64,000 bases of DNA from an uncultured Gemmatimonadota bacterium (lineage in GTDB: Bacteria; JAAXHH01): positions 2,208,001 to 2,272,000 of the forward strand of contig OX638340.1 of assembly GCA_951812955.1 (NCBI GenBank), given 5' to 3'. A program made the position numbers and the translations under genes. The notes beneath the pieces were generated by a model, which had not been told where the DNA came from, did not search any database, and saw only the letters and a list, made by a program, of their open reading frames with translations. Of this stretch, positions 28,377-48,834 are shown piece after piece (position 1 is the first letter of the stretch; each line of letters opens with the position of its first letter).

Positions 28377-28507
28377 CGATTTGCTCCTGCAGAACTTGGA
28401 TGTATTAGTATCGGTTTTTTGCTGCTAAATACAATCAGGATATCTCACCAACTAGATGGTGTTACAGTCTCAGTGTTTAATGGTAATGGAGAACTGCACT
28501 GTCTTTG

Positions 28508-29152
28508 TCACCTACGTGATCGCGATGGTACTGAACAATGATCATCCAATATTTTAACAAGAGACATACAAACACTTCTCATCTGACTAATCGCACTACT
28601 TATCTCTGATCGAGTATATCTGCGTCCGATATTCTCCGGTGGTTCTCGACCATGGGCAATAGCATTTCTGTGTGCGACCACTTCGTCTATTCGATTTCTA
28701 TGTTTTCGTCGGCGTACAGGCATCCGCCGAATACCAAAAACCCCAAAAATAAATCGCAGATGCGAGTATCTATAATGTGTTCCGTCGGTAGGTGGTTTGA
28801 TATTACTGGACAGATCAGGCTTTTGATCTGAAAATGCACGTTCAAATACTTTAACTCGATTTAACCATTCCTTACTTCGCGACCCGTCCCGCAATGATTT
28901 CAATTCTGGATCCAAGTAAATAGCCATTAGTGTAGGCAACAGATCTTTCATCATGTGTTTGTGGTTTTTAATCGCTTCTACTGCCCCAATCACTGCGTTA
29001 TTCACAGTGTATTCGTAGACAGCGTAAGTCTGCACAAACAAAAGCCCCTTGGCAACGACTGCTTGGTGTTCTTCCAGCTTCCTTGTCGCCTTCCAAAATT
29101 GCTCAATTGATAAAAACCGAGTTTCAATTTCTGTCTTAAGTGCTGGGAACAT
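28508..29152 (-). CDS. HEPN-domain protein (MAE_28990/MAE_18760-like), predicted RNase partner of DUF262
   Basis: 214 aa. Rx4H HEPN motif in VVAHRNAIAHGREP. Overlaps the upstream DUF262 gene by 17 nt. Lies in the AT-rich islet. Confidence 0.55.
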   Translation of the reverse strand: MFPALKTEIETRFLSIEQFWKATRKLEEHQAVVAKGLLFVQTYAVYEYTVNNAVIGAVEAIKNHKHMMKDLLPTLMAIYLDPELKSLRDGSRSKEWLNRVKVFERAFSDQKPDLSSNIKPPTDGTHYRYSHLRFIFGVFGIRRMPVRRRKHRNRIDEVVAHRNAIAHGREPPENIGRRYTRSEISSAISQMRSVCMSLVKILDDHCSVPSRSRR

Positions 29153-30215
29153 ACACTCTTCCTAAGAATCGATCTCGGCAGAACTCTATACGACCCTTCA
29201 CAGCTCTCAAACTATTTGTCGCGCCTGTGGTGAATCCTCTGAGTTCGTCCGAGTTCATCCAAGTAGAAATGTCTGTTGTGTCCAGTTTAGCATGTTCTTT
29301 TAATGCTAGTGATGCTCCTACGGCTATTGCCTCATAGAGATTCAATGGCGTTAAGCCCTTCCGACCAGGACGCCTTATACCTTCTGGGAAAGTTTGGGCT
29401 AGTTTTTGAAAAACCGTTCGAAACTCTTTTTCTTTGGTAATGTAGTCAAAGTGATTGCTCGCATCCTTCATGTAATCCGTTAAAAACTCCTCAACACTGT
29501 GTTCAAAGTTATTGTATCGATCCAAATACGCAAAATAACGAAGCACACATTCTTCTAAAGTTCCATCATTCCTGTTTCCTTTTGAAAGTTTTACGACCTT
29601 TTGGAAGTCATCAGTTTTTGCCAACTCATCTAGTTTGTCAGCAAACTTTCCTTGGTACACGCAGTCCCGTATTTCTTGGTTCGTTAGCAAAACACCGCCG
29701 GTGTTCAAGCGCTCAAAAAGATCAAACCGTATTACTTTGTCACTCTTATCGTTCAGGGTAACAACTCTTAAAGGTCTAGTCTTCACATGTTGTTGAATTG
29801 TTGTAGGAAAGGTACCATATGTCAAATTGTTGAAATTACTTAGTTTCTTCAGCCCTTTTAATACTAGCTTCTCACCCAAGCCAAATTGATTACGCAGTTC
29901 TTCATCGCCAGCAAACTTGACTATTGCACTCAAACGTTGAACTCCATCAACAGCTTCCCACGTGAAATCGTCATTTGTTGCCATAAAAAGATTGGGAATC
30001 GGTATTCCAAGCATGAGCGATTCTACGAGTCGAGAACAGCGTTCATCATTCCAGCGAAATTGCCGTTGGTATGAAGGTGCAACTGATATCTGTCCTTCCT
30101 TTAGCATGCTCAATAGTTCTTGGAGTTGGATGTCGAAAGTATCGAAATCCACTGTTCGTCGTTGAGTTGCCAGTTGATCAGTAAGGTCTTGCGGTATTTC
30201 GATAGGAATTTGCAC
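29136..30215 (-). CDS. DUF262 (ParB-like nuclease/NTPase domain, GmrSD N-terminal-type) protein
   Basis: 359 aa. DUF262 signatures APSYQRQFRW and AVDGVQRL (DGxQR). There is no C-terminal DUF1524/HNH half as in full GmrSD. Confidence 0.65.
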   Translation of the reverse strand: MQIPIEIPQDLTDQLATQRRTVDFDTFDIQLQELLSMLKEGQISVAPSYQRQFRWNDERCSRLVESLMLGIPIPNLFMATNDDFTWEAVDGVQRLSAIVKFAGDEELRNQFGLGEKLVLKGLKKLSNFNNLTYGTFPTTIQQHVKTRPLRVVTLNDKSDKVIRFDLFERLNTGGVLLTNQEIRDCVYQGKFADKLDELAKTDDFQKVVKLSKGNRNDGTLEECVLRYFAYLDRYNNFEHSVEEFLTDYMKDASNHFDYITKEKEFRTVFQKLAQTFPEGIRRPGRKGLTPLNLYEAIAVGASLALKEHAKLDTTDISTWMNSDELRGFTTGATNSLRAVKGRIEFCRDRFLGRVYVPST

Positions 30216-34118: not shown

Positions 34119-35717
34119 ATGGATCCATCAACGCGTCTGAGGACCAGGGATTGGCAGATCATGCCACACGATTCACAGCCAACAGACACGATCTGGTACT
34201 GCATTCGGCGAAATGGCATCGCGAAAGATGAAGGCTGGATCGGCGATGTCACGCTGGATGACTTGCCGAATCAGGTGGGCGTTGAACCGGGTGATACGTT
34301 CGAAGTTTGTATCGCTTCAGACTTTCAAACTGTACCGCCTGACCAGATATCCAGCTTCTTCTACAACCGGGACCGCGGGATTGTCGGCTTGGAGATGGCT
34401 TACGGTGATGAGACCTTGCGAATCGCGCCTACTCGAATGATCGCAGCGAATCTCGGGTTTGCCCGGGCCATGGAGAGATTCCGTCAACAGTTAAACATAA
34501 GCGCTGACGAATTCGCCACCAACGGCAGGCTGCGTGTTTTTTCCGCCAGGCAGGTCCTGGTACCGGGCGGAAGCATACCTGACCGAATGGAACTACATCG
34601 TGGATCAACACTCGTGACCGAGGCTCCGTCGGATGGCAGGGACCGAGCTGAGGTGCTGGCCTGTGGAATTAGTCGGTGGATGCTTCGAAATATGTCCGAG
34701 GATGGCGCGTTGCCCTACAAATACTGGCCTAGCCGGGGTAAAGAATCTCCGGCCGATAACGCCATTCGCCGGTTTCTTGCATCCCTGGCCCTTGAACGTC
34801 ACGGTAGATATTTCGATGACAAAGAAATTCGTGAGGCGGCCCGGCGCAACCTGGGCTTCAATCTGAAGCGGAATTTCAGGGTCATCGGCGGTGGAATAGG
34901 CGCCATAGTGGAACCAACAGGAGCGAAGCTTGGTGCGGCGGCGCTGGCCGCTTTGTGTATACTGGAGAGCCCGGCATTCAGTGATTTCAAGACCGAGTAC
35001 GACATGCTGACCGCTGGTGTGAACTCACTTGCGGATAAGGAAATGGGATTTCGTACATTCTTCTTTCCACCCGAACGCGACGGAGAAAACTGGAATTTCT
35101 ATTCGGGGGAAGCACTACTGTTCTGGGCCGAGGCCATGCGCCATGGCGCGCCGGGTGCCCCTACGCTGGAACGCTGCGCCGAGACTTTTGATAAGTGCCG
35201 GGAACGGCATTTTCGGGCACGGAACCCCGCTTTCGTTCCGTGGCATATACAGGCCTGCACATCCCTGTTCAAACAAACAAGGCGGCGTGAGTTCGTCGAT
35301 TTTGTGTTTGAGATCAGCGACTGGCTACTACCAATGCAGCAGTGGGACGGAATGTTGCCGGACCTTCGCGGTCGGTTCTACAATCCAAAACGACCGGATT
35401 TTGGACCGCCACACGCGGCTTCCACCGGAGCCTACCTCGAAGGTCTTGCGGACGCCTCGATGTTGGCGCAAATGGTAGGAGACTGTCCCCGTGCCAAAGC
35501 ATACCAACGAGTCGTAAACCGTGGGCTGCGTTCTCTACGTCAACTGCAGTTCCGCGATGCCTGCGACACTTTCTATATTTCAAAGAAACACCGTGTCATG
35601 GGCGCGATCCGTACGGAAGCCTACGACAATTCAGTTCGAGTCGACTCGGCAGCGCACGCCCTGATCGCGGCAGTAAAATGGCTGAAATCAGGACGTACTC
35701 ATTCGGTCGGCGCGTAG
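34119..35717 (+). CDS. hypothetical protein, possibly (alpha/alpha)6-barrel glycoside-hydrolase/epimerase-like; last gene of the ABC uptake operon
   Basis: 532 aa. Weak resemblance of the C-terminal ~370 aa to six-hairpin enzymes (FYSGEALLFWAEAM, ASTGAYLEGLADA). Assignment is uncertain. Confidence 0.35.
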   Translation: MDPSTRLRTRDWQIMPHDSQPTDTIWYCIRRNGIAKDEGWIGDVTLDDLPNQVGVEPGDTFEVCIASDFQTVPPDQISSFFYNRDRGIVGLEMAYGDETLRIAPTRMIAANLGFARAMERFRQQLNISADEFATNGRLRVFSARQVLVPGGSIPDRMELHRGSTLVTEAPSDGRDRAEVLACGISRWMLRNMSEDGALPYKYWPSRGKESPADNAIRRFLASLALERHGRYFDDKEIREAARRNLGFNLKRNFRVIGGGIGAIVEPTGAKLGAAALAALCILESPAFSDFKTEYDMLTAGVNSLADKEMGFRTFFFPPERDGENWNFYSGEALLFWAEAMRHGAPGAPTLERCAETFDKCRERHFRARNPAFVPWHIQACTSLFKQTRRREFVDFVFEISDWLLPMQQWDGMLPDLRGRFYNPKRPDFGPPHAASTGAYLEGLADASMLAQMVGDCPRAKAYQRVVNRGLRSLRQLQFRDACDTFYISKKHRVMGAIRTEAYDNSVRVDSAAHALIAAVKWLKSGRTHSVGA

Positions 35718-36334
35718 ATGTAGTGCCCGCGTCCTTTCTCCGGCAGCACGTCGAAAATCAAGTGCACCCGTGGTTCGTTTGTCGGGTTTCTCGCTTCGTG
35801 CAGCGCCTTGTTGTCGAACACCCACAGCTCGCCTTCCCGCATCACTATGGTTTCACCTTCTGCGGTCATTGGACTCCCCTCCGGGCTCCTCAGCACAAGG
35901 TGGTATCGATCACGTATTCGGTAGTAAGCGCCGGCGTCGGTATGAGGTCGAACCCACCCCTGAGGTTGCAAGGATACCAGTGTAGCGCGTCCAAGTACAC
36001 CCCGATGAAGCGTGGCGATCTCTTTACAGAACGCCAGCGTTCGGGGGAATTTTCTAGCAGTAGCAGTAGTGCGACTGTCATGGACGTCGTTGGCGTTTTT
36101 CGCTCCTGGAGGCAGTGGTTTTTTAGCGGTACGCAGAAAGATATTTTGGGTGTCGCGTTGACAACGAACCTTGCGTTGCCGACTGGTATCGGCGAGCCAA
36201 AGATCTGGTACTGTGTCCAATTCCAGCATTAGCGGTTCAATATCGATGCCCGTCGCGATCCGGGTGAAACGCTTACCTGCCGGTGACACATCATTTGATT
36301 CTTTACCGGGAATCACATCGGTCTTGTGTATCAC
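35699..36334 (-). CDS. aspartyl/asparaginyl beta-hydroxylase family (AspH/LpxO/CinX-type) Fe(II)/2OG oxygenase, soluble
   Basis: 211 aa. Family core GWVRPHTDAGAYYRIRDRYHLVL...GETIVMREGELWVFDNKALHEARN...RVHLIFDV, matching HxxPHxD...RLRxHLxL...FDDSFEHEAxN of AspH/LpxO. No membrane anchor. Confidence 0.7.
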   Translation of the reverse strand: MIHKTDVIPGKESNDVSPAGKRFTRIATGIDIEPLMLELDTVPDLWLADTSRQRKVRCQRDTQNIFLRTAKKPLPPGAKNANDVHDSRTTATARKFPRTLAFCKEIATLHRGVLGRATLVSLQPQGWVRPHTDAGAYYRIRDRYHLVLRSPEGSPMTAEGETIVMREGELWVFDNKALHEARNPTNEPRVHLIFDVLPEKGRGHYIYAPTE

Positions 36335-36469
36335 AAACGACCACCCTTACCGCCATATGCCAATGGGATTGATCAGCACCATCTCAGTATTCAACACAAG
36401 TAGTTACGTATGCTGGAGCCAGCTCAACAGGCCAGAAAGTACACGTTCGGTTAATCGAACAGCCATGAA

Positions 36470-37483
36470 TCAGTCGTCATCGTCGTCATCTTTATCATCG
36501 TCGTCATCGTCATCGTCGTCATCGTCGTCATCATCATCGCCGTCGCCATCCCCGTCACCATCCCCGTCGCCATCGCCATCGCCATCGCCGTCACCATCGC
36601 CGTCGCCATCCCCGTCTCCATCACCATCACCGTCGCCATCTCCATCACCATCGCCGTCACCGTCGCCATCCCCATCGCCGTCCCCATCTCCATCGCCGTC
36701 GCCGTTACCTCCAGAGTTCCCACTGGGCGGTGGACTTAACTCTTCATCGCCGTCGCCATCCCCATCGCCGTCTCCATCACCACTGGGCGGTGGACTTAAC
36801 ACTTCGTCACCGTCGCCATCCCCGTCGCCATCCCCGTCTCCATCACCGTCGCCATCCCCGTCTCCATCACCGTCGCCATCGCCATCCCCATCGCCATCGC
36901 CATCACCGTCGCCATCGCCATCCCCATCGCCATCGCCGTCACCATCCCCATCACCATCACCGTCGCCATCACCGTCGCCATCCCCGTCCCCATCTCCGTC
37001 GCCATCCCCGGCCCCGTCCCCATCGCCATCGCCGTCACCATCGCCGTCGCCATCCCCGTCTCCATCACCGTCCCCATCACCGTCGCCATCCCCGTCCCCA
37101 TCACCATCACCGTCACCATCGCCGTCACCGTCACCATCGCCGTCCCCATCGCCACCATTTGAACTTGTGGTATTTGTTACCACACTTGCGTTGTCCTCGT
37201 TATTGCTACCTGCATCCCCGTTCCCATCCCCATTTCCGTTCCTATCTCCATTTCCGTCACCATCTCCATCTCCATCGCCATCTCCGTCCCCGTCGCCGTC
37301 CCCATCGCCGCTGCCACCCGGACTCTGAGCACTCCCCACCTGATTCGCACTCGTGGCGAATCCAGACCCTGATCCCATGGGGTTCAGATCGTTGTCCCCT
37401 CTGCAACCCAGGATCATGAGCAACGAAGCGACAGTCAGTTGCATTCTTCGCAACCATTGCATAATGGTTCGGCACAAGGCCAT
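36470..37483 (-). CDS. predicted lipoprotein composed almost entirely of (Gly-Asp)n dipeptide repeats, ending in poly-Asp
   Basis: 337 aa. N-terminus MALCRTIMQWLRRMQLTVASLLMILGC (signal plus lipobox-like ILGC). Then GDGDGD... for most of its length, with two EVLSPPPSG / EELSPPPSG spacers and a ~20-residue Asp tail. Wobble asymmetry supports this strand: the Asp codons are always GAY while the Gly codons use all four third bases. Confidence 0.6.
   Translation of the reverse strand: MALCRTIMQWLRRMQLTVASLLMILGCRGDNDLNPMGSGSGFATSANQVGSAQSPGGSGDGDGDGDGDGDGDGDGDGNGDRNGNGDGNGDAGSNNEDNASVVTNTTSSNGGDGDGDGDGDGDGDGDGDGDGDGDGDGDGDGDGDGDGDGDGDGDGDGAGDGDGDGDGDGDGDGDGDGDGDGDGDGDGDGDGDGDGDGDGDGDGDGDGDGDGDGDGDGDGDGDGDGDEVLSPPPSGDGDGDGDGDGDEELSPPPSGNSGGNGDGDGDGDGDGDGDGDGDGDGDGDGDGDGDGDGDGDGDGDGDGDGDGDGDGDGDGDDDDDDDDDDDDDDDKDDDDDD
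36480..37320. repeat. ~840-bp hexanucleotide-periodic microsatellite-like repeat (GGN GAY)n with all six frames open
   Basis: Plus strand reads (TCN CCR)n = SPSPSP. Minus strand reads GDGDGD. The ORF track shows overlapping ORFs in every frame across this interval. A 27-bp element CCACTGGGCGGTGGACTTAAC(T/A)CTTC occurs twice inside. Confidence 0.85.
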
Positions 37484-37817: not shown

Positions 37818-38177
37818 CTAAGGCTTGTCGATCCAGACCGGATCCGGCGTGATGCTCGTCTCTGGCGGCGGCCCGGTATCGGTCCATTCTTCCTCGTTCT
37901 CGAGGAGGAATCCGGGTTCGACCGACATGTCGTGATCGCAGATGATCTGGCAGGACAACCGTACCTCGCCGACCAGCCCTTTCTCGGAAAGTACCGCGTG
38001 CTCGGCCTCGGTCATCGTGTCCGGCTCGCCCTCACTGATGGTCACCCGGCAGGTTGTGCACTTGGCGTTCCCACCGCACCGGTGGCCGATGTTCACCCCG
38101 GTGCCCTCGATAGCCAGTACCAGACGCTGCCCGGAATCGACTTCGTTCTCCACTCCGTTGACGGTAAGTTTCGGCAT
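37818..38177 (-). CDS. 2Fe-2S ferredoxin (plant/adrenodoxin-like fold)
   Basis: 119 aa. Cys ligands in GHRCGGNAKCTTCRV and a distal LSCQIIC. Confidence 0.75.
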   Translation of the reverse strand: MPKLTVNGVENEVDSGQRLVLAIEGTGVNIGHRCGGNAKCTTCRVTISEGEPDTMTEAEHAVLSEKGLVGEVRLSCQIICDHDMSVEPGFLLENEEEWTDTGPPPETSITPDPVWIDKP

Positions 38178-38274
38178 GATTCCCTGCTCCTTTCGCGTGT
38201 GTGCTAAACCAGTCTCAAGTGGGTTGTGACTCCATCTCGATCGAATTCAGTACAAGTATCTCCGTTTGCTACGA

Positions 38275-39066: not shown

Positions 39067-39194
39067 CGATTCCTCCAGTTTAACTTCGGCAGATTGGTCG
39101 TACTACTTCTCCAACATACGATTACGCAAAAGTCGAATCATGCCTGCTTAAGATGTCTCGCTCTTCAGTCAGTGAATTTCGGTAATGGCCCTGC

Positions 39195-40826: not shown

Positions 40827-41095
40827 GATCCATATGTACCCGCCGCGGGGCCGATGTGTCAACTGTTTTGTAGGCCTTCCATGCGGCTGGAGGATCGGCG
40901 AATCAACGGCCGTTGGACGAGCGGACAGACGGCGGACAGACACTGCCGGACGGGCCATTTTAGCCTTGCCAGATCCTGCGGGGAAATGAGATATTGAGGT
41001 TATAGGCCAAAGCCAGACACGCGAATCATAAGAGCAGGATCAACCAGGTTCGCGGCAGCCCAGGAATTGCAGCCGCCCGGACCGGAGGTACGGTC

Positions 41096-42184
41096 ATGAG
41101 CACCGATCAAGCTGACCAGGAACACGGCATCAAGGCGGTCAACCAGGAATTCACGCAATACGACCAGGTGAAGAAGGAACAGACCTACAACCTGGCCGAA
41201 GGCGCGGCGGAGGAGGAATTCGACGAGGAAACGCAGATCAGGACCTGCGACATGAACCTGTTCCATCACGGCGGACCGGAGGGCAAGGCGCAGTTCGCCC
41301 GGGACATCGGTGAGGCCATGGAGGGCATCGGTTTCGTGATCCTCGAGAACCATGAAATCCCGGCCAGCCTGTACGTCGAGGCCGAGCGCAAGGTAGCCGA
41401 GTTCTTCACGTCCACGCCTATAGCGGATAAGATGAGATACGAGGCCCAGCGGCACGGGTCGGTCAACCAGGGCTACTTCCCCATCAAGCAGACCAGCCGG
41501 ATGCATCCCGATCTCGTCGAGGGCTGGGTATTCTGCCGGCGGGCCTTCAACCTGGGCGAGAACCCGGACTACCGCGAAACGGACTACTGGCCCGCGACCG
41601 GATACGAACCCTTTTTCCGCCAGGTCATCCGGCATCACGAAGGTCTGATCCTGCCCCTCATGCAGAGCATCCTGGCCTATCTCGGCTGTGACTCGACAAT
41701 GTACGACGAGAAACTCACGCGAACGAACTTCGGCTTCCGGCTCAACTACTACCCGCCCATCACCCGGGAGGACGACGAGTCCGGCGCCGGACGCATGCTG
41801 GGCCATGAGGACGTGGACCTGTTCACCATCCTGCCCTCCCACGGGGTGGATGGCCTGCAGGTGCTCAACCGCGAAAACATGAAGTGGATCCGCCTCAATC
41901 CGCCCGAGGGCAGCATCATCATCAACACCGGCGACTACATGCAGCGGATCACCAACGACCGCCTTCCTTCCACCACGCACCGTGTCAGCAAGCCTATCGA
42001 CACCAGTCTCTACGAATCGGCCCGCATCAGCATTCCCATGGCCGTATACGTCTGGGAGGAAGAAATGCTCGAGGTGCTGCCCAACACGGGCGAGCCCAAG
42101 TACGAACCCATCTCCGCCGTCCAGTTCCACACCCGGACCACGAGCAAGTACTACGGCGACGATTATGCGGTGGATGATGATTGA
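41096..42184 (+). CDS. 2OG-Fe(II) oxygenase, isopenicillin-N-synthase-like (DIOX_N + 2OG-FeII_Oxy)
   Basis: 362 aa. HxD...H triad context (GHEDVDLF ... TTHRV) and RxS-type 2OG binding. Confidence 0.7.
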   Translation: MSTDQADQEHGIKAVNQEFTQYDQVKKEQTYNLAEGAAEEEFDEETQIRTCDMNLFHHGGPEGKAQFARDIGEAMEGIGFVILENHEIPASLYVEAERKVAEFFTSTPIADKMRYEAQRHGSVNQGYFPIKQTSRMHPDLVEGWVFCRRAFNLGENPDYRETDYWPATGYEPFFRQVIRHHEGLILPLMQSILAYLGCDSTMYDEKLTRTNFGFRLNYYPPITREDDESGAGRMLGHEDVDLFTILPSHGVDGLQVLNRENMKWIRLNPPEGSIIINTGDYMQRITNDRLPSTTHRVSKPIDTSLYESARISIPMAVYVWEEEMLEVLPNTGEPKYEPISAVQFHTRTTSKYYGDDYAVDDD

Positions 42185-42380
42185 CGGGGACTGTTGAATC
42201 GAAATGGCTGATTCGATGTGGACGACGACTGACTAAATCGGGGCAGAAGCGGACCCTCTTCGAGCATTCGGAAGGTCGACGACCGAAGACGAAGCGATAA
42301 TACGTCTGTCGGCCACCCAGCGGCCCGCGAATGACCACCCGTGGTAGACGACGACAGGCGGGATCCAGGAAAGGCTAAGC

Positions 42381-43136
42381 ATGACTCCCCACGAAAGATA
42401 CCTCTTCGACCTGCAGGGTTTTATCGAGGTCCCGGACGCGTTGGACGCCGGGCAGCTCGCAGAACTGAACGGCATACTGGACGAGAAGATCGACGGGGCC
42501 ATGGCACCCGGCGCCACCACCCACCGATTCGGCTTCACCCTGCTCGACTGGGGACCAACCTACCGGGAACTGATCGACAATCCGCGGATAGATCCTTATC
42601 TGGAACAACTGATCGGTCCGAAGTACCGGCTGGACCACGATTATGCCGATATCATCCGAAAAGGCGACGGTCCAATCGGCACGACCCTCCACGGAGGCGC
42701 CATCCCCTTCGACCCCCTCTACTCCTACACCTGCACCAACGAAGAGATCCGTTGCGGCCTGACTGTGGTCGCCTACTACCTGAAGGACGTAAATCCAGGC
42801 GACGGCGGATTCGGCTGCGTGCCCGGCAGCCATAAGAGCAACTTCCGGTTCCCGGACGAGTGGCGCAACCTCAAGACCGACCAGCCCTTCATCCGCGCCG
42901 TAACCGGCAAGGCCGGCACCGCCGTCATATTCACCGAGGCCCTGACCCACGGCACCATGCCCTGGCACGGTGACGAGCGCCGCACCCTCTTCTACAAGTA
43001 CTCGCCCAATTCGATATCCTGGTACGCGGAATACTATGACGCCGACCGGTACGAAGGTCTGACGGAACGGCAGCAGGAGATCCTTGAGGCACCGAACGCG
43101 CGGTATGGAGAACGGTCTAAGCGTGGGGTTGTGTAG
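42381..43136 (+). CDS. phytanoyl-CoA dioxygenase (PhyH) family Fe(II)/2OG oxygenase
   Basis: 251 aa. ERYLFDLQGFIEVPDAL start; GSHK and the distal His (ALTHGTMPWHGD). Confidence 0.7.
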   Translation: MTPHERYLFDLQGFIEVPDALDAGQLAELNGILDEKIDGAMAPGATTHRFGFTLLDWGPTYRELIDNPRIDPYLEQLIGPKYRLDHDYADIIRKGDGPIGTTLHGGAIPFDPLYSYTCTNEEIRCGLTVVAYYLKDVNPGDGGFGCVPGSHKSNFRFPDEWRNLKTDQPFIRAVTGKAGTAVIFTEALTHGTMPWHGDERRTLFYKYSPNSISWYAEYYDADRYEGLTERQQEILEAPNARYGERSKRGVV

Positions 43137-43505
43137 GTGGGCTTTACGGATAGACCAGTTGATATTACGACCACATTTATTTGCTCATTGATTTACTGTA
43201 TCTCGAGGTTACAAATGGACGTTAAGGAAGCCGTAAGTACGGCCATAAAACATATTGCAGATGTATACTCGGAAGAGGGAATCTCGCATATTGGATTAGA
43301 AGAGGTAGAATACGACGAGATTAACTCACAATGGAACGTGACCGTTGGATTTGCACGTAAGTGGGACTTCCCTACTCCGGTTCTTATCCCCGTATTACCT
43401 TCACCAAGACCAAACCAAAGAACCTACAAAATCGTAGTAATTCGTGATAGAGACAAGAAGGTCACCGCAATGAAGATAAGGGATTTAGCTACGTCGAATG
43501 AATAG
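43137..43505 (+). CDS. hypothetical small protein, candidate antitoxin of the downstream PIN toxin
   Basis: Overlaps the PIN gene by 8 nt. First gene of the AT-rich island. Start ambiguous (GTG 43137 or ATG ~43215). No recognisable antitoxin fold by eye. Confidence 0.35.
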   Translation: MGFTDRPVDITTTFICSLIYCISRLQMDVKEAVSTAIKHIADVYSEEGISHIGLEEVEYDEINSQWNVTVGFARKWDFPTPVLIPVLPSPRPNQRTYKIVVIRDRDKKVTAMKIRDLATSNE

Positions 43506-43968
43506 TGTGCTTATAGATACGAATCTACTTGTCCTTTTGGTTGTAGGATCTACCGATAGAGAGTTTATTAGTCGACATAAACGCACAAAATCGTTCATAC
43601 CCAGAGACTATGACGAACTGACACGTCTGTTGTCGGGATCTCGTGAGTTATGGGTTACTTCTCACTGTCTGGCAGAGACATCGAATCTTCTGAAGCAAAC
43701 CGATAAAACAAAAGCACAGATCTTGTTACATACTCTTGCGGCCTACTGCGATATTGCCCGCGAATCGCATATTCCCAAAGAGACGGTATTTGGATACGAG
43801 AACTACCGCAGACTTGGCGTCACCGACACCGGCTTCATATACTCATCCGAAACAGTCTCTCGATCTATAACAGTAGATTTCAACTTGTACATCGAACTGA
43901 GTAACCTTGGCAGAGAAGTGATAAACTTCCACCACATCCGTGCTTCGTATCTCCAGAATGTCGATTGA
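43498..43968 (+). CDS. PIN-domain protein (VapC-like toxin)
   Basis: 156 aa. N-terminal LIDTNLLVLLVVG with the first acidic residue, plus later conserved acidic positions typical of PIN. Confidence 0.55.
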   Translation: MNSVLIDTNLLVLLVVGSTDREFISRHKRTKSFIPRDYDELTRLLSGSRELWVTSHCLAETSNLLKQTDKTKAQILLHTLAAYCDIARESHIPKETVFGYENYRRLGVTDTGFIYSSETVSRSITVDFNLYIELSNLGREVINFHHIRASYLQNVD

Positions 43969-44089
43969 CACGACGATCACACAGTTTTGCACATTCCAGT
44001 GCTTAGTTTTTGGTCAAGACCAACCTGTAGTTAAAACCAACCAATGGCCCTGAAGAAATCCCAAAATTTGGTAAACACTGCCAGGAGAG

Positions 44090-45034
44090 ATGCCACCTAT
44101 GCTTGACGAATTGGTTGGATGTATCGATGAACTTAAAGATCGTATTTCCAAATACCGAAACTCACTAAATGAGAACGAAACTCGTACTCGAATGCAGTTA
44201 ATAGATCCGCTGCTTCGTGTGCTGGGCTGGGACGTCTCCGATCCACGGTACGTTATCCCAGAATTCAAGGTGTCCGATGGTTGGGCTGACTATGCCTTAT
44301 TGCGGGATGATGGTAAGCCTGCTGCTATGGTGGAAGCTAAAAAACTGGACGAACCGTTAAAGCCCGCACACCGTGCTCAGATGTTGAAATACGCAATTGA
44401 GTTGGGTATCCCATACACTGGTTTGACAGATGGAAATCACTGGGAGTTGTACAATGTTTTCCAACCGGTACCTATGGAGGACAAACAGATCTTGGATGTT
44501 ACTTTATTGGATTCCCACTCCCACGAAAGTGCACTAAAGTTACTGCTGCTCTGGAATCCAAATCTAGACGCCGGCAGCGCGGTGAAAGCAAATGAACCTG
44601 TTCTCGTCGACACTCAGAATGGCGGTTCGATTCCTCCAATAATCGTTCCGCCACCATCGAACTGGAAGGCACTTTCAGATTACGAACCACCAGCAGGAAC
44701 ACCCGCACCTAAGGCTATTAGGCTTTGGGATGACTCAGAAAGAGAAGTGCATCATTGGTATGAAATTCTCACCATAGTAGCCGAAAAGCTCTACAACGAA
44801 AATGTCCTTACATTGGAACATATACCGATTCAATGGGCTAAAAAGACCTATAGTATTCACTCTCAACCAGTACATCCGACCGGCAACAAGTTTGAAAATC
44901 ATAAAGAAATCGGTAACTCGGGATTGTTCGTAAACGTAAATTTAAATACCGGTCAAGTACGAAATAACACCCGGAATCTACTGAAGAAATACAACATTGG
45001 TACAGAGAAGGTTTACCTCAAGGTAGCCGATTAG
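44090..45034 (+). CDS. HsdR_N-like PD-(D/E)xK nuclease-domain protein with uncharacterised C-terminal domain
   Basis: 314 aa. N-terminal NENETRTRMQLIDPLLRVLGW ... DYALLRDDGKPAAMVEAKKL is the type-I-restriction R-subunit N-terminal nuclease signature (D...EAK). The C-terminal ~160 aa match nothing I recognise. Confidence 0.55.
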   Translation: MPPMLDELVGCIDELKDRISKYRNSLNENETRTRMQLIDPLLRVLGWDVSDPRYVIPEFKVSDGWADYALLRDDGKPAAMVEAKKLDEPLKPAHRAQMLKYAIELGIPYTGLTDGNHWELYNVFQPVPMEDKQILDVTLLDSHSHESALKLLLLWNPNLDAGSAVKANEPVLVDTQNGGSIPPIIVPPPSNWKALSDYEPPAGTPAPKAIRLWDDSEREVHHWYEILTIVAEKLYNENVLTLEHIPIQWAKKTYSIHSQPVHPTGNKFENHKEIGNSGLFVNVNLNTGQVRNNTRNLLKKYNIGTEKVYLKVAD

Positions 45035-45444: not shown

Positions 45445-47622
45445 TTGATGAATTCAACGTCTGAAGAAACCACCACCCGTCCCTGTTGGTTTGTGGGCGC
45501 CAGTTATTCTGGTACGGGCGATCAAACTGAGCGATTTCTCACGGAAGGTATCTGGGAGAACGGCTTCGACAACGATCATCCGGCCGTCGCGATGACCAAA
45601 ACCATTCAGCCCGGAGACCCAATCGCGATCAAGTCCGCCTACGTTCGCAAACACGACCTACCTTTTGACAGTCGCAACCAGTTCGTATCCGTAATGGCGA
45701 TCAAGGCCATCGGGACGGTTTTAGAGAACATCGGTGATGGCCATACCGTTAAGGTTAAATGGAATAAGGAGGTAACTCCGCGAGAATGGTATTTCTTTAC
45801 TAACAGAGGTACAGTTTGGAAAGTATCGCCTGGTAGTGACTGGTATTCCGACGCCCTGATCGGATTCGCGTTCGAGAACAAGCCGCAGGATATCGATCGT
45901 TTCTTAAAAGTGCCGTATTGGAGGGAGAGGTATCGAGGAGACACGCTCAATGATCAACGGTTTGCGTGGACGAGGTTCTACGAGGCCTTTGCGGATAAGC
46001 TGCTCACATATAGGAACAAGCGCTTAGACTTAATAAATGGTATACAAGAAATAGCTGCCAGAGAGTATGCCATGTTGGTTCTGAGGGATCAGTTTCGGGA
46101 CGGTACGATCGGTCCACTCAAAGACATATGCCCATTTACTACCATCGGATTGTTCAATAAGGGAATAACGAATAGCAATCGAAGATCAATTGCATCAGAA
46201 CTCGCTGAATTGCTGGGAGTGTCAGAGTCGGTTCCGGATTCATTCGATGGAATACCTGTTCTCAACAATCAGAATTCCTGGTTTTTTTCGTATGAAAAAA
46301 ACCGACGACCGGAAGATATTGAAATCCTTTGGAATGTTTACTCCCGTGCAATTGCCTTCGCTGATTCAGATGATTCCGATGCGCGATCTGCTTTCGTCTC
46401 TGCTTACGACGACGCATCCGAGGTTTCTCACGTAGGTTGGAAACTTACATTTGGGCTGTATTGGATACGGCCTTGGGATTTCCCCGTCCTCGACACGAAT
46501 ACCCGGCGTTACCTGGACAAGAAACTCAATATTGAGATCGGACTAAATGGACCGAAAAGGGGATACTGTAGTGCGAACGACTACCTGACGGTCCATGACA
46601 CACTTGAAAAGAGGTTTCTGGAGGACACATATCCGGTTCGTTCTTTTCCAGAACTAGCACGCGAAGCCTGGTTGTATAAGCCCGGTGACCCGGATCCCCC
46701 GCCAGATAGCGGTCTGGATCCCCCGCCACCACCTGTCCCTTATTCACTCGATGATATCGTGAAAGACGGCTGTTTCATTGCCAGAGATAAACTCGAGTCG
46801 ATACTCAATCGACTCCGTACCAAGAAAAACCTCATTCTACAAGGCCCTCCAGGAACCGGGAAGACTTGGCTCGCCAGGAAGTTGGCCTACGCTTTGATCT
46901 GTGAGCGAGACGAAAGCAAGGTTCGTTCGGTACAGTTCCATCCCAATCTCTCTTACGAAGATTTCGTACGTGGTTGGCGGCCGGCGGGAGATGGTAAACT
47001 TACGCTCGTAGATGGCCCCTTCATCGCCATAAGGGACGAGGCCGAAAAAGATCCTACTACTCGATACGTCTTGGTCATCGAAGAGATCAACCGGGGCAAT
47101 CCCGCACAGATTTTCGGCGAGATGCTGACATTGTTGGAGACCGACAAGCGAACTCCAGACGAAGCCTTGGAATTGGTTTATTCAAAGACTCCGGATGAGC
47201 GATTCTTTGTTCCTAACAATCTGTTTGTCATCGGGACGATGAACATTGCTGATCGTTCACTGGCACTTGTAGACCTGGCATTACGCCGTAGATTTGCATT
47301 TATCGATCTGGAACCTACCCTTGGCAAGACTTGGCGAGACTGGGTCCATTCTAAAAACGGGATAGATAACGAGACTCTCACCGAAATTGAGCATCGTATA
47401 GATGATCTGAACCGGACGATCTCCAATGATTCCGGTCTTGGCTCGCAATTTCGCTTGGGGCACAGTTATGTGACGCCGCCGTTTGAACAGCCGATTAAAG
47501 ATGGGAGAAAGTGGTACAGGGAAGTCGTTGAAACGGAAATTGGACCACTACTCGACGAATACTGGTTCGAAGACCTCGCGAAATCTAGAAACGCAAAAAA
47601 GAAACTTTTGGATGGTTTTTAG
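45445..47622 (+). CDS. mcrB: McrB-family GTPase (AAA+), with ~440-aa uncharacterised N-terminal region
   Basis: 725 aa. Walker A LILQGPPGTGKTW. McrB signature VLVIEEINRGNPAQIFGEMLTLLE. FVIGTMNIADRS. Confidence 0.85.
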   Translation: MMNSTSEETTTRPCWFVGASYSGTGDQTERFLTEGIWENGFDNDHPAVAMTKTIQPGDPIAIKSAYVRKHDLPFDSRNQFVSVMAIKAIGTVLENIGDGHTVKVKWNKEVTPREWYFFTNRGTVWKVSPGSDWYSDALIGFAFENKPQDIDRFLKVPYWRERYRGDTLNDQRFAWTRFYEAFADKLLTYRNKRLDLINGIQEIAAREYAMLVLRDQFRDGTIGPLKDICPFTTIGLFNKGITNSNRRSIASELAELLGVSESVPDSFDGIPVLNNQNSWFFSYEKNRRPEDIEILWNVYSRAIAFADSDDSDARSAFVSAYDDASEVSHVGWKLTFGLYWIRPWDFPVLDTNTRRYLDKKLNIEIGLNGPKRGYCSANDYLTVHDTLEKRFLEDTYPVRSFPELAREAWLYKPGDPDPPPDSGLDPPPPPVPYSLDDIVKDGCFIARDKLESILNRLRTKKNLILQGPPGTGKTWLARKLAYALICERDESKVRSVQFHPNLSYEDFVRGWRPAGDGKLTLVDGPFIAIRDEAEKDPTTRYVLVIEEINRGNPAQIFGEMLTLLETDKRTPDEALELVYSKTPDERFFVPNNLFVIGTMNIADRSLALVDLALRRRFAFIDLEPTLGKTWRDWVHSKNGIDNETLTEIEHRIDDLNRTISNDSGLGSQFRLGHSYVTPPFEQPIKDGRKWYREVVETEIGPLLDEYWFEDLAKSRNAKKKLLDGF

Positions 47623-48743
47623 TGGTGAATGGCCCAGTAGTTAGTACGGCTGACGAGACGATCGAACAGGCCGGGTATATCGGTCGTATCCCTTTACGAA
47701 ATATCTGGCTGCTCATGCTTTACGCCTCTGACCTTTTCAGGCAACTTGATGCGTCTGAATACCGCTCCTTCGAAGATAATCCTGATGACCTGCCCGATCT
47801 GGTTGCCGAGATCCTATCACATGAAGTCGAACGTCGACTAAAGCGAAATCTGAGTTACGGCTACCAATACCGTAACGAAGTGCTCGGACGGGTTCGCGGA
47901 CGTATCGACCTTTTACAAACCGAAGCTCATCAACTACTGCAACGCGGCATGGTCGCCTGTCGATTCGACGAACTGACAATCGACACACCGAGGAACAGGT
48001 ACGTTCGATCCGCCCTCGAGATGATATCCAAATATGTTCGTCGAAAAGACCTGGCTCACCAGTGCAGGTCCCTCGTTGGAAGCCTTAGGCGACAGGGAGT
48101 CGTTGGAGAACGACCTGGGCGTGAGGTGACGTCAGTTGAGCGATACGGTAGACATGACGCTGTTGACCGCAAGATGGTGGATGCGGCTCGTCTTGCCTTC
48201 GAAATGGCCATTCCGACCGAGCAGACCGGTTCCAGGCACCTTCCACTACCGGACCGTGATATAAACTGGATTCGCAGACTCTATGAGAAAGGCGTTGCAG
48301 GATTCTATGATGTGGTACTTTCCAGAAGGGGATGGAATGTGTATCCGGGAACGATTCTCAGATGGCCCACGACAGTCAGAAGTCCGCGAATAGACGGGAT
48401 ACTACCCTCCATGCGGACCGATATTGTGTTGGATCATGTTGACGAAGGCCGACGGATCGTTATAGACACGAAATTCAACTCGGTTTTGTCGAGAGGTTGG
48501 TATCGAAATGAAGGGATACGAAGCGGATACATGTACCAGATCTATGCTTACCTTAGGTCGCAGGAAGAGAGTGGTGATCCGCTTGATTGTAATGCAGAGG
48601 GAATGTTTCTCCATCCGTCGGTTGGTGAGATGTTCAACGAATGGGTAGATATTCAGGGTCATCGGATCCACTTCAATACCGTTGATCTCGCAACCGATAC
48701 ACAGACCATCAGATCGCAGTTGTTGGATGCGGTGAAACCTTAA
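47622..48743 (+). CDS. mcrC: McrC-family PD-(D/E)xK nuclease subunit
   Basis: 373 aa. GTG start overlaps the mcrB stop by 1 nt. C-terminal nuclease region DIVLDHVDEGRRIVIDTKFN. Confidence 0.75.
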   Translation: MVNGPVVSTADETIEQAGYIGRIPLRNIWLLMLYASDLFRQLDASEYRSFEDNPDDLPDLVAEILSHEVERRLKRNLSYGYQYRNEVLGRVRGRIDLLQTEAHQLLQRGMVACRFDELTIDTPRNRYVRSALEMISKYVRRKDLAHQCRSLVGSLRRQGVVGERPGREVTSVERYGRHDAVDRKMVDAARLAFEMAIPTEQTGSRHLPLPDRDINWIRRLYEKGVAGFYDVVLSRRGWNVYPGTILRWPTTVRSPRIDGILPSMRTDIVLDHVDEGRRIVIDTKFNSVLSRGWYRNEGIRSGYMYQIYAYLRSQEESGDPLDCNAEGMFLHPSVGEMFNEWVDIQGHRIHFNTVDLATDTQTIRSQLLDAVKP

Positions 48744-48834
48744 ACTGACTTTGCTCTCGACATAGTCGTTCCACCAGCCCATTTCCCGCATCCGTTTGGT
48801 GTGTTCGGCAGCTTCGGTAATCTCAAGATTTGAC

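What the first reader, a model, noticed from the sequence alone, without database searches (positions are those of the whole stretch)
36480..37320. 840-bp hexanucleotide repeat open in all six frames: contingency or assembly hazard
The ORF track shows simultaneous long ORFs in all frames across this interval: SP-repeat, GD-repeat, RHP-rich and MATVM-type. A 6-nt period means slippage by one or more units never changes frame, so copy number can vary freely. The repeat is imperfect, with mixed third bases. That points to protein-level maintenance rather than recent pure slippage. Short-read assemblies often collapse or misassemble such regions, so the true length is uncertain.
Basis: seen in the sequence. 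Interest (0 to 1): 0.5.

Follow-up and report, generated by a model that had tools for sequence, protein, structure and literature searches.

The report
Gly-Asp repeat lipoprotein with modifying enzymes
The repeat is the coding sequence, on the minus strand, of an extremely acidic (Gly-Asp)n-polyAsp lipoprotein; across several bacterial phyla, mostly in sponge-associated genomes, this kind of protein sits beside the same two genes, an Asp/Asn-hydroxylase-family oxygenase and an unannotated enzyme, so it is probably a modified surface polyanion that nobody has described.

Summary
The hexanucleotide repeat is real (window 36473-37310). It is not open in all six frames: three frames are fully open, two have 3 stops each, one has 38. 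The coding frame is the minus-strand ORF 36470..37483. It encodes a 337-aa lipoprotein with about 100 Gly-Asp units and a D15-K-D6 tail, net charge about -127. Variation is restricted to GGN/GAY, which identifies this frame and rules out the plus-strand Ser-Pro frame.

A PF05118 Fe/2OG hydroxylase lies directly downstream (35699..36334, minus). A conserved 532-aa protein with no Pfam match converges on it (34119..35717, plus). Searching with the hydroxylase alone gave 41 loci from several phyla. All 41 carry the 532-aa gene and 39 carry a (GD)n tract, which is fused in frame to the hydroxylase in 10. Hydroxylase-532 fusions also exist. A Rhizobium plasmid RiPP-type cluster pairs a 532-aa homologue with a GG-leader/(DG)8 precursor.

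Close relatives carry 337-, 366- and 163-aa versions. Long-read assemblies span the tract; 7 other contigs end inside it.

Best reading: a length-variable acidic surface protein whose Asp residues are hydroxylated and further modified. The modification is inferred, not shown. It is not a contingency switch.

The parts
36470..37483 (-). Gene for a 337-aa (GD)n-polyAsp lipoprotein (stop codon 36470-36472). Alternative starts at M8 (37462) and M14 (37444). The mature protein is 311 aa, 37% Asp and 36% Gly, with net charge about -127.
   Evidence: ORF. Composition and codon test. Charge. Orthologues in L042, L002 and L001.
37403..37483 (-). Signal peptide with lipobox (MALCRTIMQWLRRMQLTVASLLMILG|C).
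   Evidence: Matches the PROSITE PS51257-type pattern from any of the three candidate starts. 19 of the 43 GD-tract ORFs examined (window included) have a lipobox by the same strict pattern.
37256..37309 (-). (GD)9 block, followed by the non-repeat spacer GNGDRNGNGDGNGDAGSNNEDNASVVTNTTSSNG (37154-37255).
36806..37153 (-). (GD)23-GA-(GD)34 block.
36704..36805 (-). Interruptions EVLSPPPS and EELSPPPSGNSGGN flanking a (GD)6 block. They correspond to a 21-nt direct DNA repeat on the plus strand (ccactgggcggtggacttaac, read by eye).
   Evidence: The same interruptions are present in L042, and one is present in L002.
36536..36703 (-). (GD)28 block.
36473..36535 (-). C-terminal polyAsp tail, D15-K-D6.
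   Evidence: PolyD (5 or more) follows the longest GD tract in 19 and precedes it in 5 of 39 cassette loci with a tract of 8 or more units, against 1 and 2 of 115 non-cassette GD loci.
36444..36461 (-). Weak terminator-like hairpin in the 135-nt spacer between the GD gene and the hydroxylase gene. It may attenuate read-through (inference).
35699..36334 (-). 211-aa Fe(II)/2-oxoglutarate oxygenase of the Asp/Asn beta-hydroxylase family (PF05118). GTG start, preceded by AAGGGTGG.
34119..35717 (+). 532-aa conserved protein with no Pfam or NCBIfam match. N-terminal alpha/beta domain plus C-terminal (alpha/alpha)6 barrel. Convergent with the hydroxylase gene and overlapping its 3' end by 19 nt.

Best explanation
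The repeat is the body of a minus-strand gene for an exported lipoprotein. After a signal peptide and lipobox, the protein is almost entirely (Gly-Asp)n (about 100 units in five blocks) and ends in a polyAsp tail. It should be an intrinsically disordered polyanion.

The gene is the first member of a three-gene cassette found in several phyla, in unrelated neighbourhoods: (1) the (GD)n/polyD protein, (2) a PF05118 Fe(II)/2-oxoglutarate oxygenase, and (3) an uncharacterised 532-aa enzyme with an (alpha/alpha)6 barrel.

Most likely mechanism (inferred). The oxygenase beta-hydroxylates Asp residues in G-D-G context before export. The 532-aa enzyme then processes the tract further by unknown chemistry. 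The product would be a heavily modified, cation-chelating (Ca2+/Mg2+/Fe3+) stalk or brush on the cell envelope, or on cargo domains such as RTX repeats, a subtilase or a lectin.

Tract length drifts quickly through in-frame indels, because only the GD composition and the reading frame are constrained.

Shown: the coding frame, the lipobox, the gene linkage and fusions, retention of the catalytic residues, and length variation.
Inferred: that the GD tract is the enzymes' substrate, that Asp is hydroxylated, and the physiological role.
For: Coding frame:
- The Asp wobble position is restricted to Y, so Pro codons in the antisense SP frame are 95% CCR against 57% in neighbouring genes, p = 4e-21.
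- A lipobox is present, and orthologues have a nearly identical N-terminus.

Linkage:
- Patterns from the hydroxylase alone retrieved 41 loci from Gemmatimonadota, Acidobacteriota, Gamma- and Alphaproteobacteria.
- 39 of 41 have a (GD)n tract beside the hydroxylase, with 7 to 137 GD units per locus (several contigs end inside the tract).
- All 41 carry the 532-aa gene, convergent with the hydroxylase. No fourth gene is conserved.

Fusions:
- In 10 loci lipobox-(GD)n-polyD is fused in frame to the hydroxylase domain.
- P0371, P0376, P0402 and P0452 are 2 x PF05118 plus the 532-like domain. In L164 such a fusion converges on a (GD) repeat protein.

The 532-aa family tracks GD substrates without the hydroxylase:
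- L144 and L145.
- Rhizobium lusitanum plasmid p_2 has a 73-aa precursor with a GG leader and a (DG)8 core, next to a radical SAM gene, a 532-like gene (33% identity, E = 2e-74), HlyD and a peptidase-containing ABC exporter.

Enzyme competence: HxD...H and Arg are invariant.

Precedent: SmaO, an Fe/2OG enzyme, beta-hydroxylates Asp specifically in GDGDG/GDG motifs and works with a second enzyme, sometimes as a fusion (PMC12186529).

Signature: tracts in cassette loci are long (median longest tract 51 units against 15) and carry polyD. Among 120 metagenome loci with (GD)12 or more, the cassette was found only where total GD units reach 28 or more, and in 3 of the 5 loci with 40 or more.
Against: - No biochemical evidence exists. 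No mass spectrometry shows hydroxy-Asp in these proteins.
- By sequence and fold the oxygenase is closest to free-proline hydroxylases, and weakly to LpxO and OlsC lipid hydroxylases. A non-protein substrate is therefore possible.
- Topology is awkward. In the window the hydroxylase has no signal peptide (read by eye), while its presumed substrate is exported. In the fused forms the oxygenase domain itself follows a lipobox and would be extracytoplasmic.
- Shorter (GD)12-25 linkers are common in secreted proteins with no cassette nearby: 115 of 120 metagenome loci. GD tracts therefore do not need these enzymes.
- Distant members of the 532-aa family also occur without GD tracts (L163, L165).
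- The partner enzyme is not the HD-domain SmaX type, so the SmaO/SmaX chemistry cannot simply be transferred.
Confidence: 0.55

Rival explanations
1. The (GD)n-polyD tract is an unmodified acidic, disordered spacer or Ca2+-binding stalk in exported proteins. The adjacent oxygenase and 532-aa protein act on another substrate, such as a free amino acid, a lipid or a glycan, and are only co-inherited or co-regulated with it.
For: - The nearest solved relatives of the oxygenase are free L-proline hydroxylases. There are weak NCBIfam hits to LpxO, OlsC and a 'nonproteinogenic amino acid hydroxylase' model.
- The 532-aa barrel resembles sugar-acting GH76 and AGE enzymes.
- GD linkers without the cassette are frequent.
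Against: - It does not explain the in-frame GD-hydroxylase fusions in 10 loci.
- It does not explain the hydroxylase-532 fusion beside a GD protein.
- It does not explain the Rhizobium cluster, where the 532-like enzyme sits with a GG-leader/(DG)8 precursor and a peptidase-containing exporter.
- It does not explain why very different cargo proteins share only the GD/polyD module next to the same two enzymes.
Confidence: 0.22
2. The acidic tract is an accessory of the hydroxylase rather than its substrate. It would be a membrane tether and Ca2+/Fe2+-binding region, like the acidic luminal region of eukaryotic AspH/junctate. The enzyme would hydroxylate other extracytoplasmic proteins, possibly host EGF-like domains. 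In the window lineage the tether and the catalytic domain are split into two genes.
For: - Ten fused proteins have the order lipobox - acidic tract - PF05118 domain. This is the order recalled for human AspH, whose membrane anchor and luminal oxygenase domain are described in PMC6817910 (abstract); the acidic Ca2+-binding region is my own recollection.
- Many of the loci come from host-associated (sponge) MAGs (isolate naming matches PMC9531527).
Against: - In the window and most loci the hydroxylase is a separate protein with no signal peptide (by inspection) and cannot join an exported tether.
- GD tracts are attached to unrelated cargo: RTX repeats, a subtilase, a lectin.
- The 532-aa partner and the Rhizobium precursor point to the GD tract itself as the thing acted on.
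Confidence: 0.12
3. The locus is a simple-sequence contingency locus: a hypermutable tract that switches or tunes expression of a surface antigen.
For: Tract length differs strongly between close relatives (337, 366 and 163 aa). The protein is surface-directed.
Against: - The tract is scrambled at synonymous sites; the longest perfect hexamer run is 3 units.
- The unit is a multiple of 3 and lies inside the ORF, so slippage cannot switch the gene on or off.
- All inferred indels are in frame.
Confidence: 0.04
4. The tract is an assembly artefact, or it codes on the plus strand as a Ser-Pro repeat protein.
For: - Short-read assemblies do break here: 7 contig ends and 2 N-gaps.
- The plus-strand SP ORF (36171..37328) is fully open.
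Against: - A hifiasm-style contig (L042) and complete chromosomes (L002 and many OY/OZ records) carry the same gene with the same interruptions.
- The SP frame lacks CCY Pro codons, and its 5' part overlaps the hydroxylase gene.
Confidence: 0.03

Closest known systems
SmaA/SmaO/SmaX Asp-to-aminomalonate RiPP pathway (Kim et al., JACS 2025, PMC12186529)
   Same: An Fe(II)/2OG oxygenase hydroxylates Asp specifically in GDGDG/GDG context. A second enzyme then acts on the hydroxy-Asp. The two enzymes are sometimes fused. Precursors have Asp in Gly-rich regions.
   Different: - Here the presumed substrate is a 100-unit tract in a full-length lipoprotein or multidomain exported protein, not a short core peptide behind a GG leader.
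- The partner enzyme is an (alpha/alpha)6-barrel protein with no Pfam family, not an HD-domain protein.
- No peptidase-containing exporter is in the cassette.
Staphylococcal Ser-Asp (SD) repeat adhesins (Clf/Sdr) with the SdgA/SdgB glycosyltransferases
   Same: A long X-Asp dipeptide repeat is encoded by an imperfect, synonymously scrambled 6/18-nt repeat in a surface protein. Length varies between strains. Dedicated modifying enzymes are encoded nearby (from my own knowledge). The GD protein hits the SD-repeat part of the MSCRAMM models by composition.
   Different: The dipeptide is Gly-Asp, not Ser-Asp. Anchoring is by lipobox, not LPXTG. The neighbouring enzymes are an oxygenase and an unknown barrel protein, not glycosyltransferases. 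All NCBIfam scores are far below the cut-offs (49 bits against 1700).
Eukaryotic aspartyl/asparaginyl beta-hydroxylase (AspH) with its acidic Ca2+-binding region (junctate/humbug isoforms)
   Different: - The bacterial enzyme keeps a full HxD...H triad.
- It has no TPR domain and no EGF-domain substrate in sight.
- Sequence similarity to human AspH is marginal (E about 0.15).
RTX nonapeptide (GGxGxDxUx) Ca2+-binding repeats
   Same: Gly/Asp-rich and Ca2+-binding, in secreted proteins. In five gammaproteobacterial cassette loci the (GD)n tract lies in the same protein as Gly/Asp-rich RTX-type repeats; a Pfam RTX hit was obtained for L009 (PF00353, E = 7e-39).
   Different: The period is 2 residues, not 9, and there is no hydrophobic position, so a beta-roll cannot form. 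The window protein has no RTX repeat.
Simple-sequence contingency loci (Haemophilus, Neisseria, Campylobacter)
   Same: Repeat number differs between closely related genomes.
   Different: The tract is imperfect and in frame, with a unit that is a multiple of 3. It changes protein length only and cannot phase-switch expression.

Membership tests
Simple-sequence contingency (phase-variation) locus | Homogeneous (perfect or near-perfect) repeat tract prone to slipped-strand mispairing | tested here: not met
   The longest perfect 6-nt tandem is 3 units and the longest perfect 12-nt tandem is 2 units. Synonymous-site entropy is near maximal.
Simple-sequence contingency (phase-variation) locus | Unit-number change shifts the reading frame or promoter spacing and so switches expression | tested here: not met
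   The unit is 6 nt and lies inside the ORF. All 11 gaps in the window-L042 alignment are multiples of 3.
Simple-sequence contingency (phase-variation) locus | Tract length differs among close relatives | tested here: met
   337, 366 and 163 aa in the window, L042 and L002.
Bacterial lipoprotein | N-terminal signal peptide ending in a lipobox Cys (PROSITE PS51257-type pattern) | tested here: met
   The pattern matches ...LLMILG|C from M1, M8 or M14. 19 of the 43 GD-tract ORFs examined (window included) match the same pattern. No dedicated predictor (SignalP, LipoP) was available.
PF05118 Asp/Asn beta-hydroxylase family (Fe/2OG oxygenase) | Pfam score above the gathering threshold | tested here: met
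   80.4 bits against a cut-off of 22.6, E = 1.7e-22.
PF05118 Asp/Asn beta-hydroxylase family (Fe/2OG oxygenase) | Iron-binding HxD/E...H residues and the 2OG-binding Arg are retained | tested here: met
   H130, D132, H178 and R188 are invariant in 33 and 42 sequences. They align with the PHxD and H residues of L-proline cis-4-hydroxylase.
PF05118 Asp/Asn beta-hydroxylase family (Fe/2OG oxygenase) | Hydroxylates the beta-carbon of protein-bound Asp/Asn | not testable with these tools
   Only context supports it: gene adjacency, fusions and the SmaO precedent. Family members with other substrates (proline, lipid A) score as well or better.
SmaO/SmaX Asp-to-aminomalonate cascade (PMC12186529) | Fe/2OG Asp hydroxylase encoded next to a substrate with a GDG motif | tested here: met
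   Every Asp in the tract is flanked by Gly.
SmaO/SmaX Asp-to-aminomalonate cascade (PMC12186529) | HD-domain (DUF6817/HD_4) second enzyme, SmaX | tested here: not met
   The conserved partner has no Pfam or NCBIfam hit and folds as an (alpha/alpha)6 barrel. No other conserved gene exists in the 41 loci.
SmaO/SmaX Asp-to-aminomalonate cascade (PMC12186529) | Short precursor with a GG leader, exported by a peptidase-containing ABC transporter | tested here: not met
   The window substrate is a 337-aa lipoprotein and the cassette contains no such exporter. The feature is met only in the distant Rhizobium cluster L166.
SD-repeat MSCRAMM adhesins | Ser-Asp dipeptide repeat; model score above the NCBIfam cut-off | tested here: not met
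   The best NCBIfam hit is 48.6 bits against a cut-off of 1700, and it covers the repeat region only. The dipeptide is Gly-Asp and the anchor is a lipobox.
RTX Ca2+-binding repeat proteins | Nonapeptide GGxGxDxUx repeats (PF00353) | tested here: not met
   There is no PF00353 hit in the window protein. PF00353 is present only in gammaproteobacterial cassette proteins such as L009.

The most novel reading that the evidence does not exclude
This may be a protein-scale, RiPP-like modification system that has not been described. Tracts of roughly 10 to more than 130 Gly-Asp units in exported proteins would be converted by a PF05118 Asp beta-hydroxylase and a new (alpha/alpha)6-barrel enzyme family (no Pfam; about 1,900 clusters at 50% identity) into a poly(hydroxy-Asp) or further-processed chelating polymer. 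The three-gene cassette would have spread horizontally among sponge- and coral-associated Gemmatimonadota, Acidobacteriota and Proteobacteria, as a surface polyanion involved in cation or mineral control or in host interaction. The same barrel enzyme would define a RiPP class with (DG)n cores, as in Rhizobium lusitanum plasmid p_2.
Probability: 0.4. Interest if true: 0.85.

Novelty: new variant of a known kind. Interest (0 to 1): 0.68.

Why it matters
- It turns an apparent low-complexity nuisance into a defined gene within a conserved three-gene unit. Current annotation misses it: the gene calls on record for L042 are shifted-frame ORFs, the window protein is not in the protein collection searched, and short-read contigs break in the tract.
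- It names a large uncharacterised enzyme family and gives it a testable substrate, Gly-Asp repeats. That family is linked to RiPP-type clusters.
- If the tract is hydroxylated, this would be the first case of Asp beta-hydroxylation applied to a whole repeat protein in bacteria. The resulting polyanion would resemble both marine hydroxy-Asp siderophore ligands and polyAsp biomineralisation proteins.
- The cassette's spread across phyla, many of them sponge MAGs, makes it a candidate symbiosis factor.
- Cultured carriers make it experimentally tractable: Algihabitans albus ac2 (L041) and Rhizobium lusitanum 629.

Tried and rejected
- A protein database search with the GD protein returned only compositional hits, with GD runs of 10 residues or fewer (5 units or fewer) and no true homologue. 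The gene is usually not called and the composition filters bite.
- Exact look-ups of the GD protein, the hydroxylase and the epimerase found nothing on record. The start codons probably differ.
- The Pfam 'TrAA12' hit on the GD tract recurs in every GD protein at profile positions 380-433. I treat it as a low-complexity artefact.
- No Rfam family was found in 35.5-38.5 kb, no sigma-70-like promoter and no tRNA.
- Literature searches for GD or DG repeats, Asp hydroxylase plus sponge symbiont, and aspartate-rich repeat proteins found no description of the cassette.
- The SmaO sequence could not be obtained because no supplement is held. Homology of the window oxygenase to SmaO is therefore untested.
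- The afdb50 fold library was unavailable.
- The 253-aa unknown protein in the Rhizobium cluster is not related to the hydroxylase.
- The plus-strand SP-repeat reading is rejected on codon evidence.
- The reverse association is weak. Only 5 of 120 metagenome loci with (GD)12 or more carry the cassette, so GD tracts in general are not diagnostic. Long tracts with polyD are.
Full report
**1. What is in the sequence**

Window 36473-37310 is a tandem repeat. Tandem Repeats Finder reports periods of 6, 12 and 60 nt, with 53.6 copies of the 12-mer at 72% matches. GC skew falls to -0.5.

'Open in all six frames' is an overstatement. Across 36480-37320, three frames have no stop. Two frames have three stops each, all inside the non-repeat interruptions. 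The sixth frame has 38 stops, because GGT-GAY reads through TGA.

**2. Which frame is real**

Every variable position is a third codon position both in the minus-strand frame (GGN GAY)n and in the plus-strand frame (TCN CCR)n. Synonymous scrambling alone therefore cannot pick the strand.

The restriction at one of the two positions can. It is only Y on the minus strand (Asp GAY; GAR would be Glu). That leaves Pro codons in the plus frame as 95% CCA/CCG, against 57% in twelve neighbouring genes (114 of 120; binomial p = 4e-21). The constraint is therefore on Gly-Asp.

The minus-strand ORF 36470..37483 also has these features:
- A signal peptide and lipobox, MALCRTIMQWLRRMQLTVASLLMILG|C.
- A terminator-like hairpin just after its stop codon.
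- Orthologues with the same N-terminus in three related genomes.

The plus-strand SP ORF begins inside the neighbouring hydroxylase gene. The mature product is 311 aa, with 130 acidic and 3 basic residues and a net charge of about -127. Its layout is (GD)9 - spacer - (GD)23 GA (GD)34 - EVLSPPPS - (GD)6 - EELSPPPSGNSGGN - (GD)28 - D15 K D6.

**3. The neighbours**

Directly downstream on the same strand, after a 135-nt spacer, is a 211-aa PF05118 'aspartyl/asparaginyl beta-hydroxylase' family protein (35699..36334; E = 1.7e-22). It has its own GTG start, preceded by AAGGGTGG.

Converging on it, with a 19-nt overlap, is a 532-aa ORF (34119..35717) with no Pfam or NCBIfam match.

**4. The linkage is conserved across phyla**

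I scanned one genome per species with peptide patterns taken only from the hydroxylase. This returned 41 loci. By record title they come from Gemmatimonadota, Acidobacteriota (Vicinamibacteria, Thermoanaerobaculia, Bryobacterales), Gammaproteobacteria and Alphaproteobacteria, including the cultured Algihabitans albus.

Many are MAGs whose isolate names match sponge microbiome studies. The 'jk18x..bins' naming is that of the Ircinia study PMC9531527. The other host assignments (APA_, Plut_, RHO1_) are my inference from the names.

- The hydroxylase is 67-74% identical to the window protein in most of these loci (53-55% in two alphaproteobacterial loci, about 90% in the window's own lineage).
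- The 532-aa gene is present and convergent in all 41 loci (60-70% identity in most, 42% in two Alphaproteobacteria).
- A (GD)n tract lies beside the hydroxylase in 39 of 41 loci.
- The exceptions are L006, which has a non-repeat lipoprotein, and L007, where I read a transposase-like ORF upstream. That reading is by eye.
- None of the other window genes is syntenic outside the window's own lineage (L001, L002; L042 is also collinear).
- All-against-all clustering of ORFs finds no fourth conserved gene.

The unit is therefore three genes, embedded in unrelated neighbourhoods. That pattern fits horizontal spread.

**5. The GD module is attached to many different proteins**

Architectures seen, with Pfam checks:
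- Small lipoproteins ending in polyD (the window lineage and Vicinamibacteria).
- Lipobox - spacer - (GD)n - polyD fused in frame to the hydroxylase domain, in 10 loci including complete chromosomes (PF05118 hit within the fusion).
- PolyD + (GD)n + RTX-type repeats (PF00353, E = 7e-39 in L009).
- Signal + (GD)n + poly-D/E + subtilase (PF00082; Algihabitans).
- (GD)58 + a weak B_lectin hit.
- (GD)n + a C-terminal domain with no Pfam match (L033, L035, L096).
- A large duplicated N-terminal domain + polyPro + (GD)n + polyD.

The only shared element is the GD/polyD tract. Such tracts are distinctive:
- The median longest tract is 51 units, against 15 in GD tracts found elsewhere.
- PolyD of 5 or more follows the tract in 19 and precedes it in 5 of 39 cassette loci. 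The figures are 1 and 2 of 115 for non-cassette loci.

**6. Fusions and a RiPP-type relative**

A profile of the 532-aa family finds 1,917 clusters (at 50% identity) at E <= 1e-3. Among them:
- Four proteins carry two PF05118 domains followed by the 532-like domain.
- Several are 532-like + Mur ligase M and C domains.
- One is methyltransferase + FAD-binding + 532-like.

The contig of one hydroxylase-hydroxylase-532 fusion (L164) has a convergent 618-aa DUF4214 protein with about 45 GD units.

Two metagenome loci, L144 and L145, pair a 37-43% identical homologue of the 532-aa protein with a GD-repeat protein and no hydroxylase.

On Rhizobium lusitanum plasmid p_2, a homologue of the 532-aa protein (33% identity over 461 residues, E = 2e-74) lies between a radical SAM gene and HlyD plus a peptidase-containing ABC exporter. 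Upstream is a 73-aa ORF, VDNNKPQDTTTDKDKLRELLEEELNQVAGG|DGDGDGDGDGDGDGDDDGGGDQ.... This is a double-glycine leader followed by a (DG)8 core.

A Mur-ligase fusion (L163) also sits next to a C39-peptidase ABC exporter and HlyD.

Together these results tie the 532-aa family to peptide modification and specifically to GD tracts. They also tie it to the hydroxylase by gene fusion.

**7. What the two enzymes look like**

The oxygenase:
- It keeps H130-x-D132...H178 and R188 in every homologue aligned.
- By sequence, the best PDB hit is the proline hydroxylase (E = 3.7e-5).
- It therefore appears to be a competent Fe/2OG oxygenase whose substrate cannot be read from homology.

The 532-aa protein:
- The model has pLDDT 72.5 and pTM 0.70.
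- It has an N-terminal alpha/beta domain and an (alpha/alpha)6 barrel.

**8. Mechanism proposed**

The closest precedent is SmaO. This Fe/2OG enzyme beta-hydroxylates Asp only in GDGDG/GDG context, with the Gly after Asp being critical. It hands the product to a second enzyme, and the two are sometimes fused (PMC12186529).

By analogy, I propose that the window oxygenase hydroxylates Asp in the (GD)n tract of the lipoprotein precursor before export, and that the 532-aa enzyme processes it further. The product would be a dense polyanionic, chelating tract on the envelope. The weak hairpin between the GD gene and the hydroxylase gene could give more substrate transcript than enzyme transcript, as in RiPP operons; this is inference only.

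My confidence, step by step:
- Coding frame and lipoprotein: about 0.95.
- Functional linkage of the three genes: about 0.9.
- The GD tract is the substrate: about 0.6.
- Asp beta-hydroxylation: about 0.5.
- Physiological role (cation or mineral control, host interaction): about 0.2.

Counter-points:
- The free-amino-acid hydroxylase affinities of the oxygenase.
- The topology problem in the fused forms, where the oxygenase domain follows a lipobox.
- The abundance of shorter GD linkers without the cassette. In a metagenome scan for (GGNGAY)12, only 5 of 120 loci carried cassette genes. All five had 28 or more GD units in total, and three were among the five loci with 40 or more.

**9.

Three related genomes carry the orthologous gene with a nearly identical N-terminus:
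- L042, a 2.47-Mb 'ptg' contig about 96% identical in DNA to the window. Its first 174 nt of the gene differ from the window by 1 nt.
- L002, a complete 3.9-Mb chromosome.
- L001, a short MAG contig.

Protein lengths are 366 aa (L042), 163 aa (L002) and truncated (L001), against 337 aa in the window. Block sizes are:
- Window: 9/23/34/6/28 GD units with D15KD6.
- L042: 10/10/54/39 with D21KD6.
- L002: 15/27.

A global alignment of the window and L042 genes needs 11 gaps of 6 to 60 nt, all multiples of 3. So length changes much faster than flanking sequence, and always in frame, even though the DNA is scrambled (longest perfect hexamer run 3 units).

The tract is not a classical contingency switch. 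It cannot change frame or turn the gene off.

Assembly hazard is real for short reads:
- Seven contigs end inside the tract (L001, L003, L014, L016, L018, L019, L020).
- Two have N-runs in it (L008, L033).
- Chromosome-level assemblies run through it.

There is also an annotation hazard. In L042 the gene calls on record are two 'MATVM' ORFs in the wrong frame, and the hydroxylase is truncated to 56 aa. This helps explain why protein databases hold no homologue of the GD protein. I cannot tell whether the window itself comes from long reads, so its exact unit count is unverified.

**10. Comparison with known systems and verdict**

The locus works like a dipeptide-repeat surface protein with dedicated modifying enzymes (staphylococcal SD repeats with SdgA/B) and like the SmaO/SmaX pathway. 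It fails the membership tests for both:
- The dipeptide is Gly-Asp, and the NCBIfam MSCRAMM scores lie far below their cut-offs.
- There is no glycosyltransferase, no HD-domain partner, and no GG-leader precursor or peptidase-containing exporter in the cassette.

It is not an RTX protein and not a contingency locus.

I found no description of a (GD)n + PF05118 + barrel-enzyme cassette in the searchable literature. I rate it a new variant of a known kind, with a substantial chance that it is a new protein-scale modification system.

Noticed in passing
window 28390-30533: A low-GC island (0.41-0.50 against about 0.61) carries a HEPN-domain protein (28508..29152, minus; PF18737/PF18735) and a GmrSD_N type IV restriction protein (29136..30215, minus). 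It is absent from the close relatives L042 and L002, so it is probably a recently acquired defence insertion.
   Followed up: partly
window 43000-48750: A second low-GC island (0.45-0.49) holds an HSDR_N-like protein (44090..45034), an AAA_5 McrB-like ATPase (45445..47622) and McrC (47622..48743). The three genes tested from it (43498..43968, 44090..45034, 45445..47622) have no match in L002.
   Followed up: partly
L042 7539-9416: The public gene calls for this long-read contig replace the GD gene with two shifted-frame 'MATVM...' ORFs (107 and 109 aa) and truncate the hydroxylase to 56 aa. Automated annotation systematically mishandles this locus type.
   Followed up: yes
L166 (Rhizobium lusitanum plasmid p_2, NZ_CP050304.1, about 213.4-221.5 kb): A RiPP-type cluster contains a 73-aa precursor with a GG leader and a (DG)8-DDD-GGG-D core, an unknown 253-aa protein, a radical SAM enzyme, a homologue of the 532-aa protein, HlyD and a peptidase-containing ABC exporter. 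A PF13640 2OG oxygenase lies nearby. It looks like an undescribed RiPP class in a cultured strain.
   Followed up: partly
L163 8001-11186; L165 5198-8554; proteins P0323, P0340, P0361: Members of the 532-aa family are fused to, or encoded next to, Mur-ligase M and C domains. They lie beside C39-peptidase ABC/HlyD or T1SS genes. This hints at ATP-dependent ligation onto a carboxylate as an alternative tailoring step.
   Followed up: partly
All GD-repeat proteins, e.g. window 37016-37168 (residues 106-157): Pfam model PF22807 (TrAA12-like) scores above its gathering threshold on pure (GD)n tracts, always at profile positions about 380-433. This is a low-complexity false positive that could mis-name these proteins.
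   Followed up: yes
L003, L005, L017, L022, L025-L030, L032, L037, L040 (the residues just after the lipobox Cys): Acidobacterial cassette lipoproteins share a motif directly after the lipid-modified Cys: C-[GRSEM]-[DE]-D-[GNS]-[DE]-P-[LV]-x-P-T-[AS]-P. The window lineage has the weaker CRGDNDLNP. It could be a sorting signal or an enzyme-recognition ('leader-like') element.
   Followed up: no
window 37818-43136: Upstream of the GD gene lies a run of redox genes that is syntenic only within the window's own lineage: a 2Fe-2S ferredoxin, an NAD-dependent epimerase/dehydratase, an aldehyde dehydrogenase, a 2OG-Fe(II) oxygenase (41096..42184, by the L042 annotation) and a PhyH dioxygenase (42381..43136). 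Whether it relates to the cassette is unknown.
   Followed up: no
L007 about 7.5-10 kb: In this Vicinamibacterales chromosome the position upstream of the hydroxylase holds a roughly 355-aa ORF that I read as transposase-like (by eye, not checked against Pfam). No GD gene is present, which suggests cassette decay by IS insertion.
   Followed up: no
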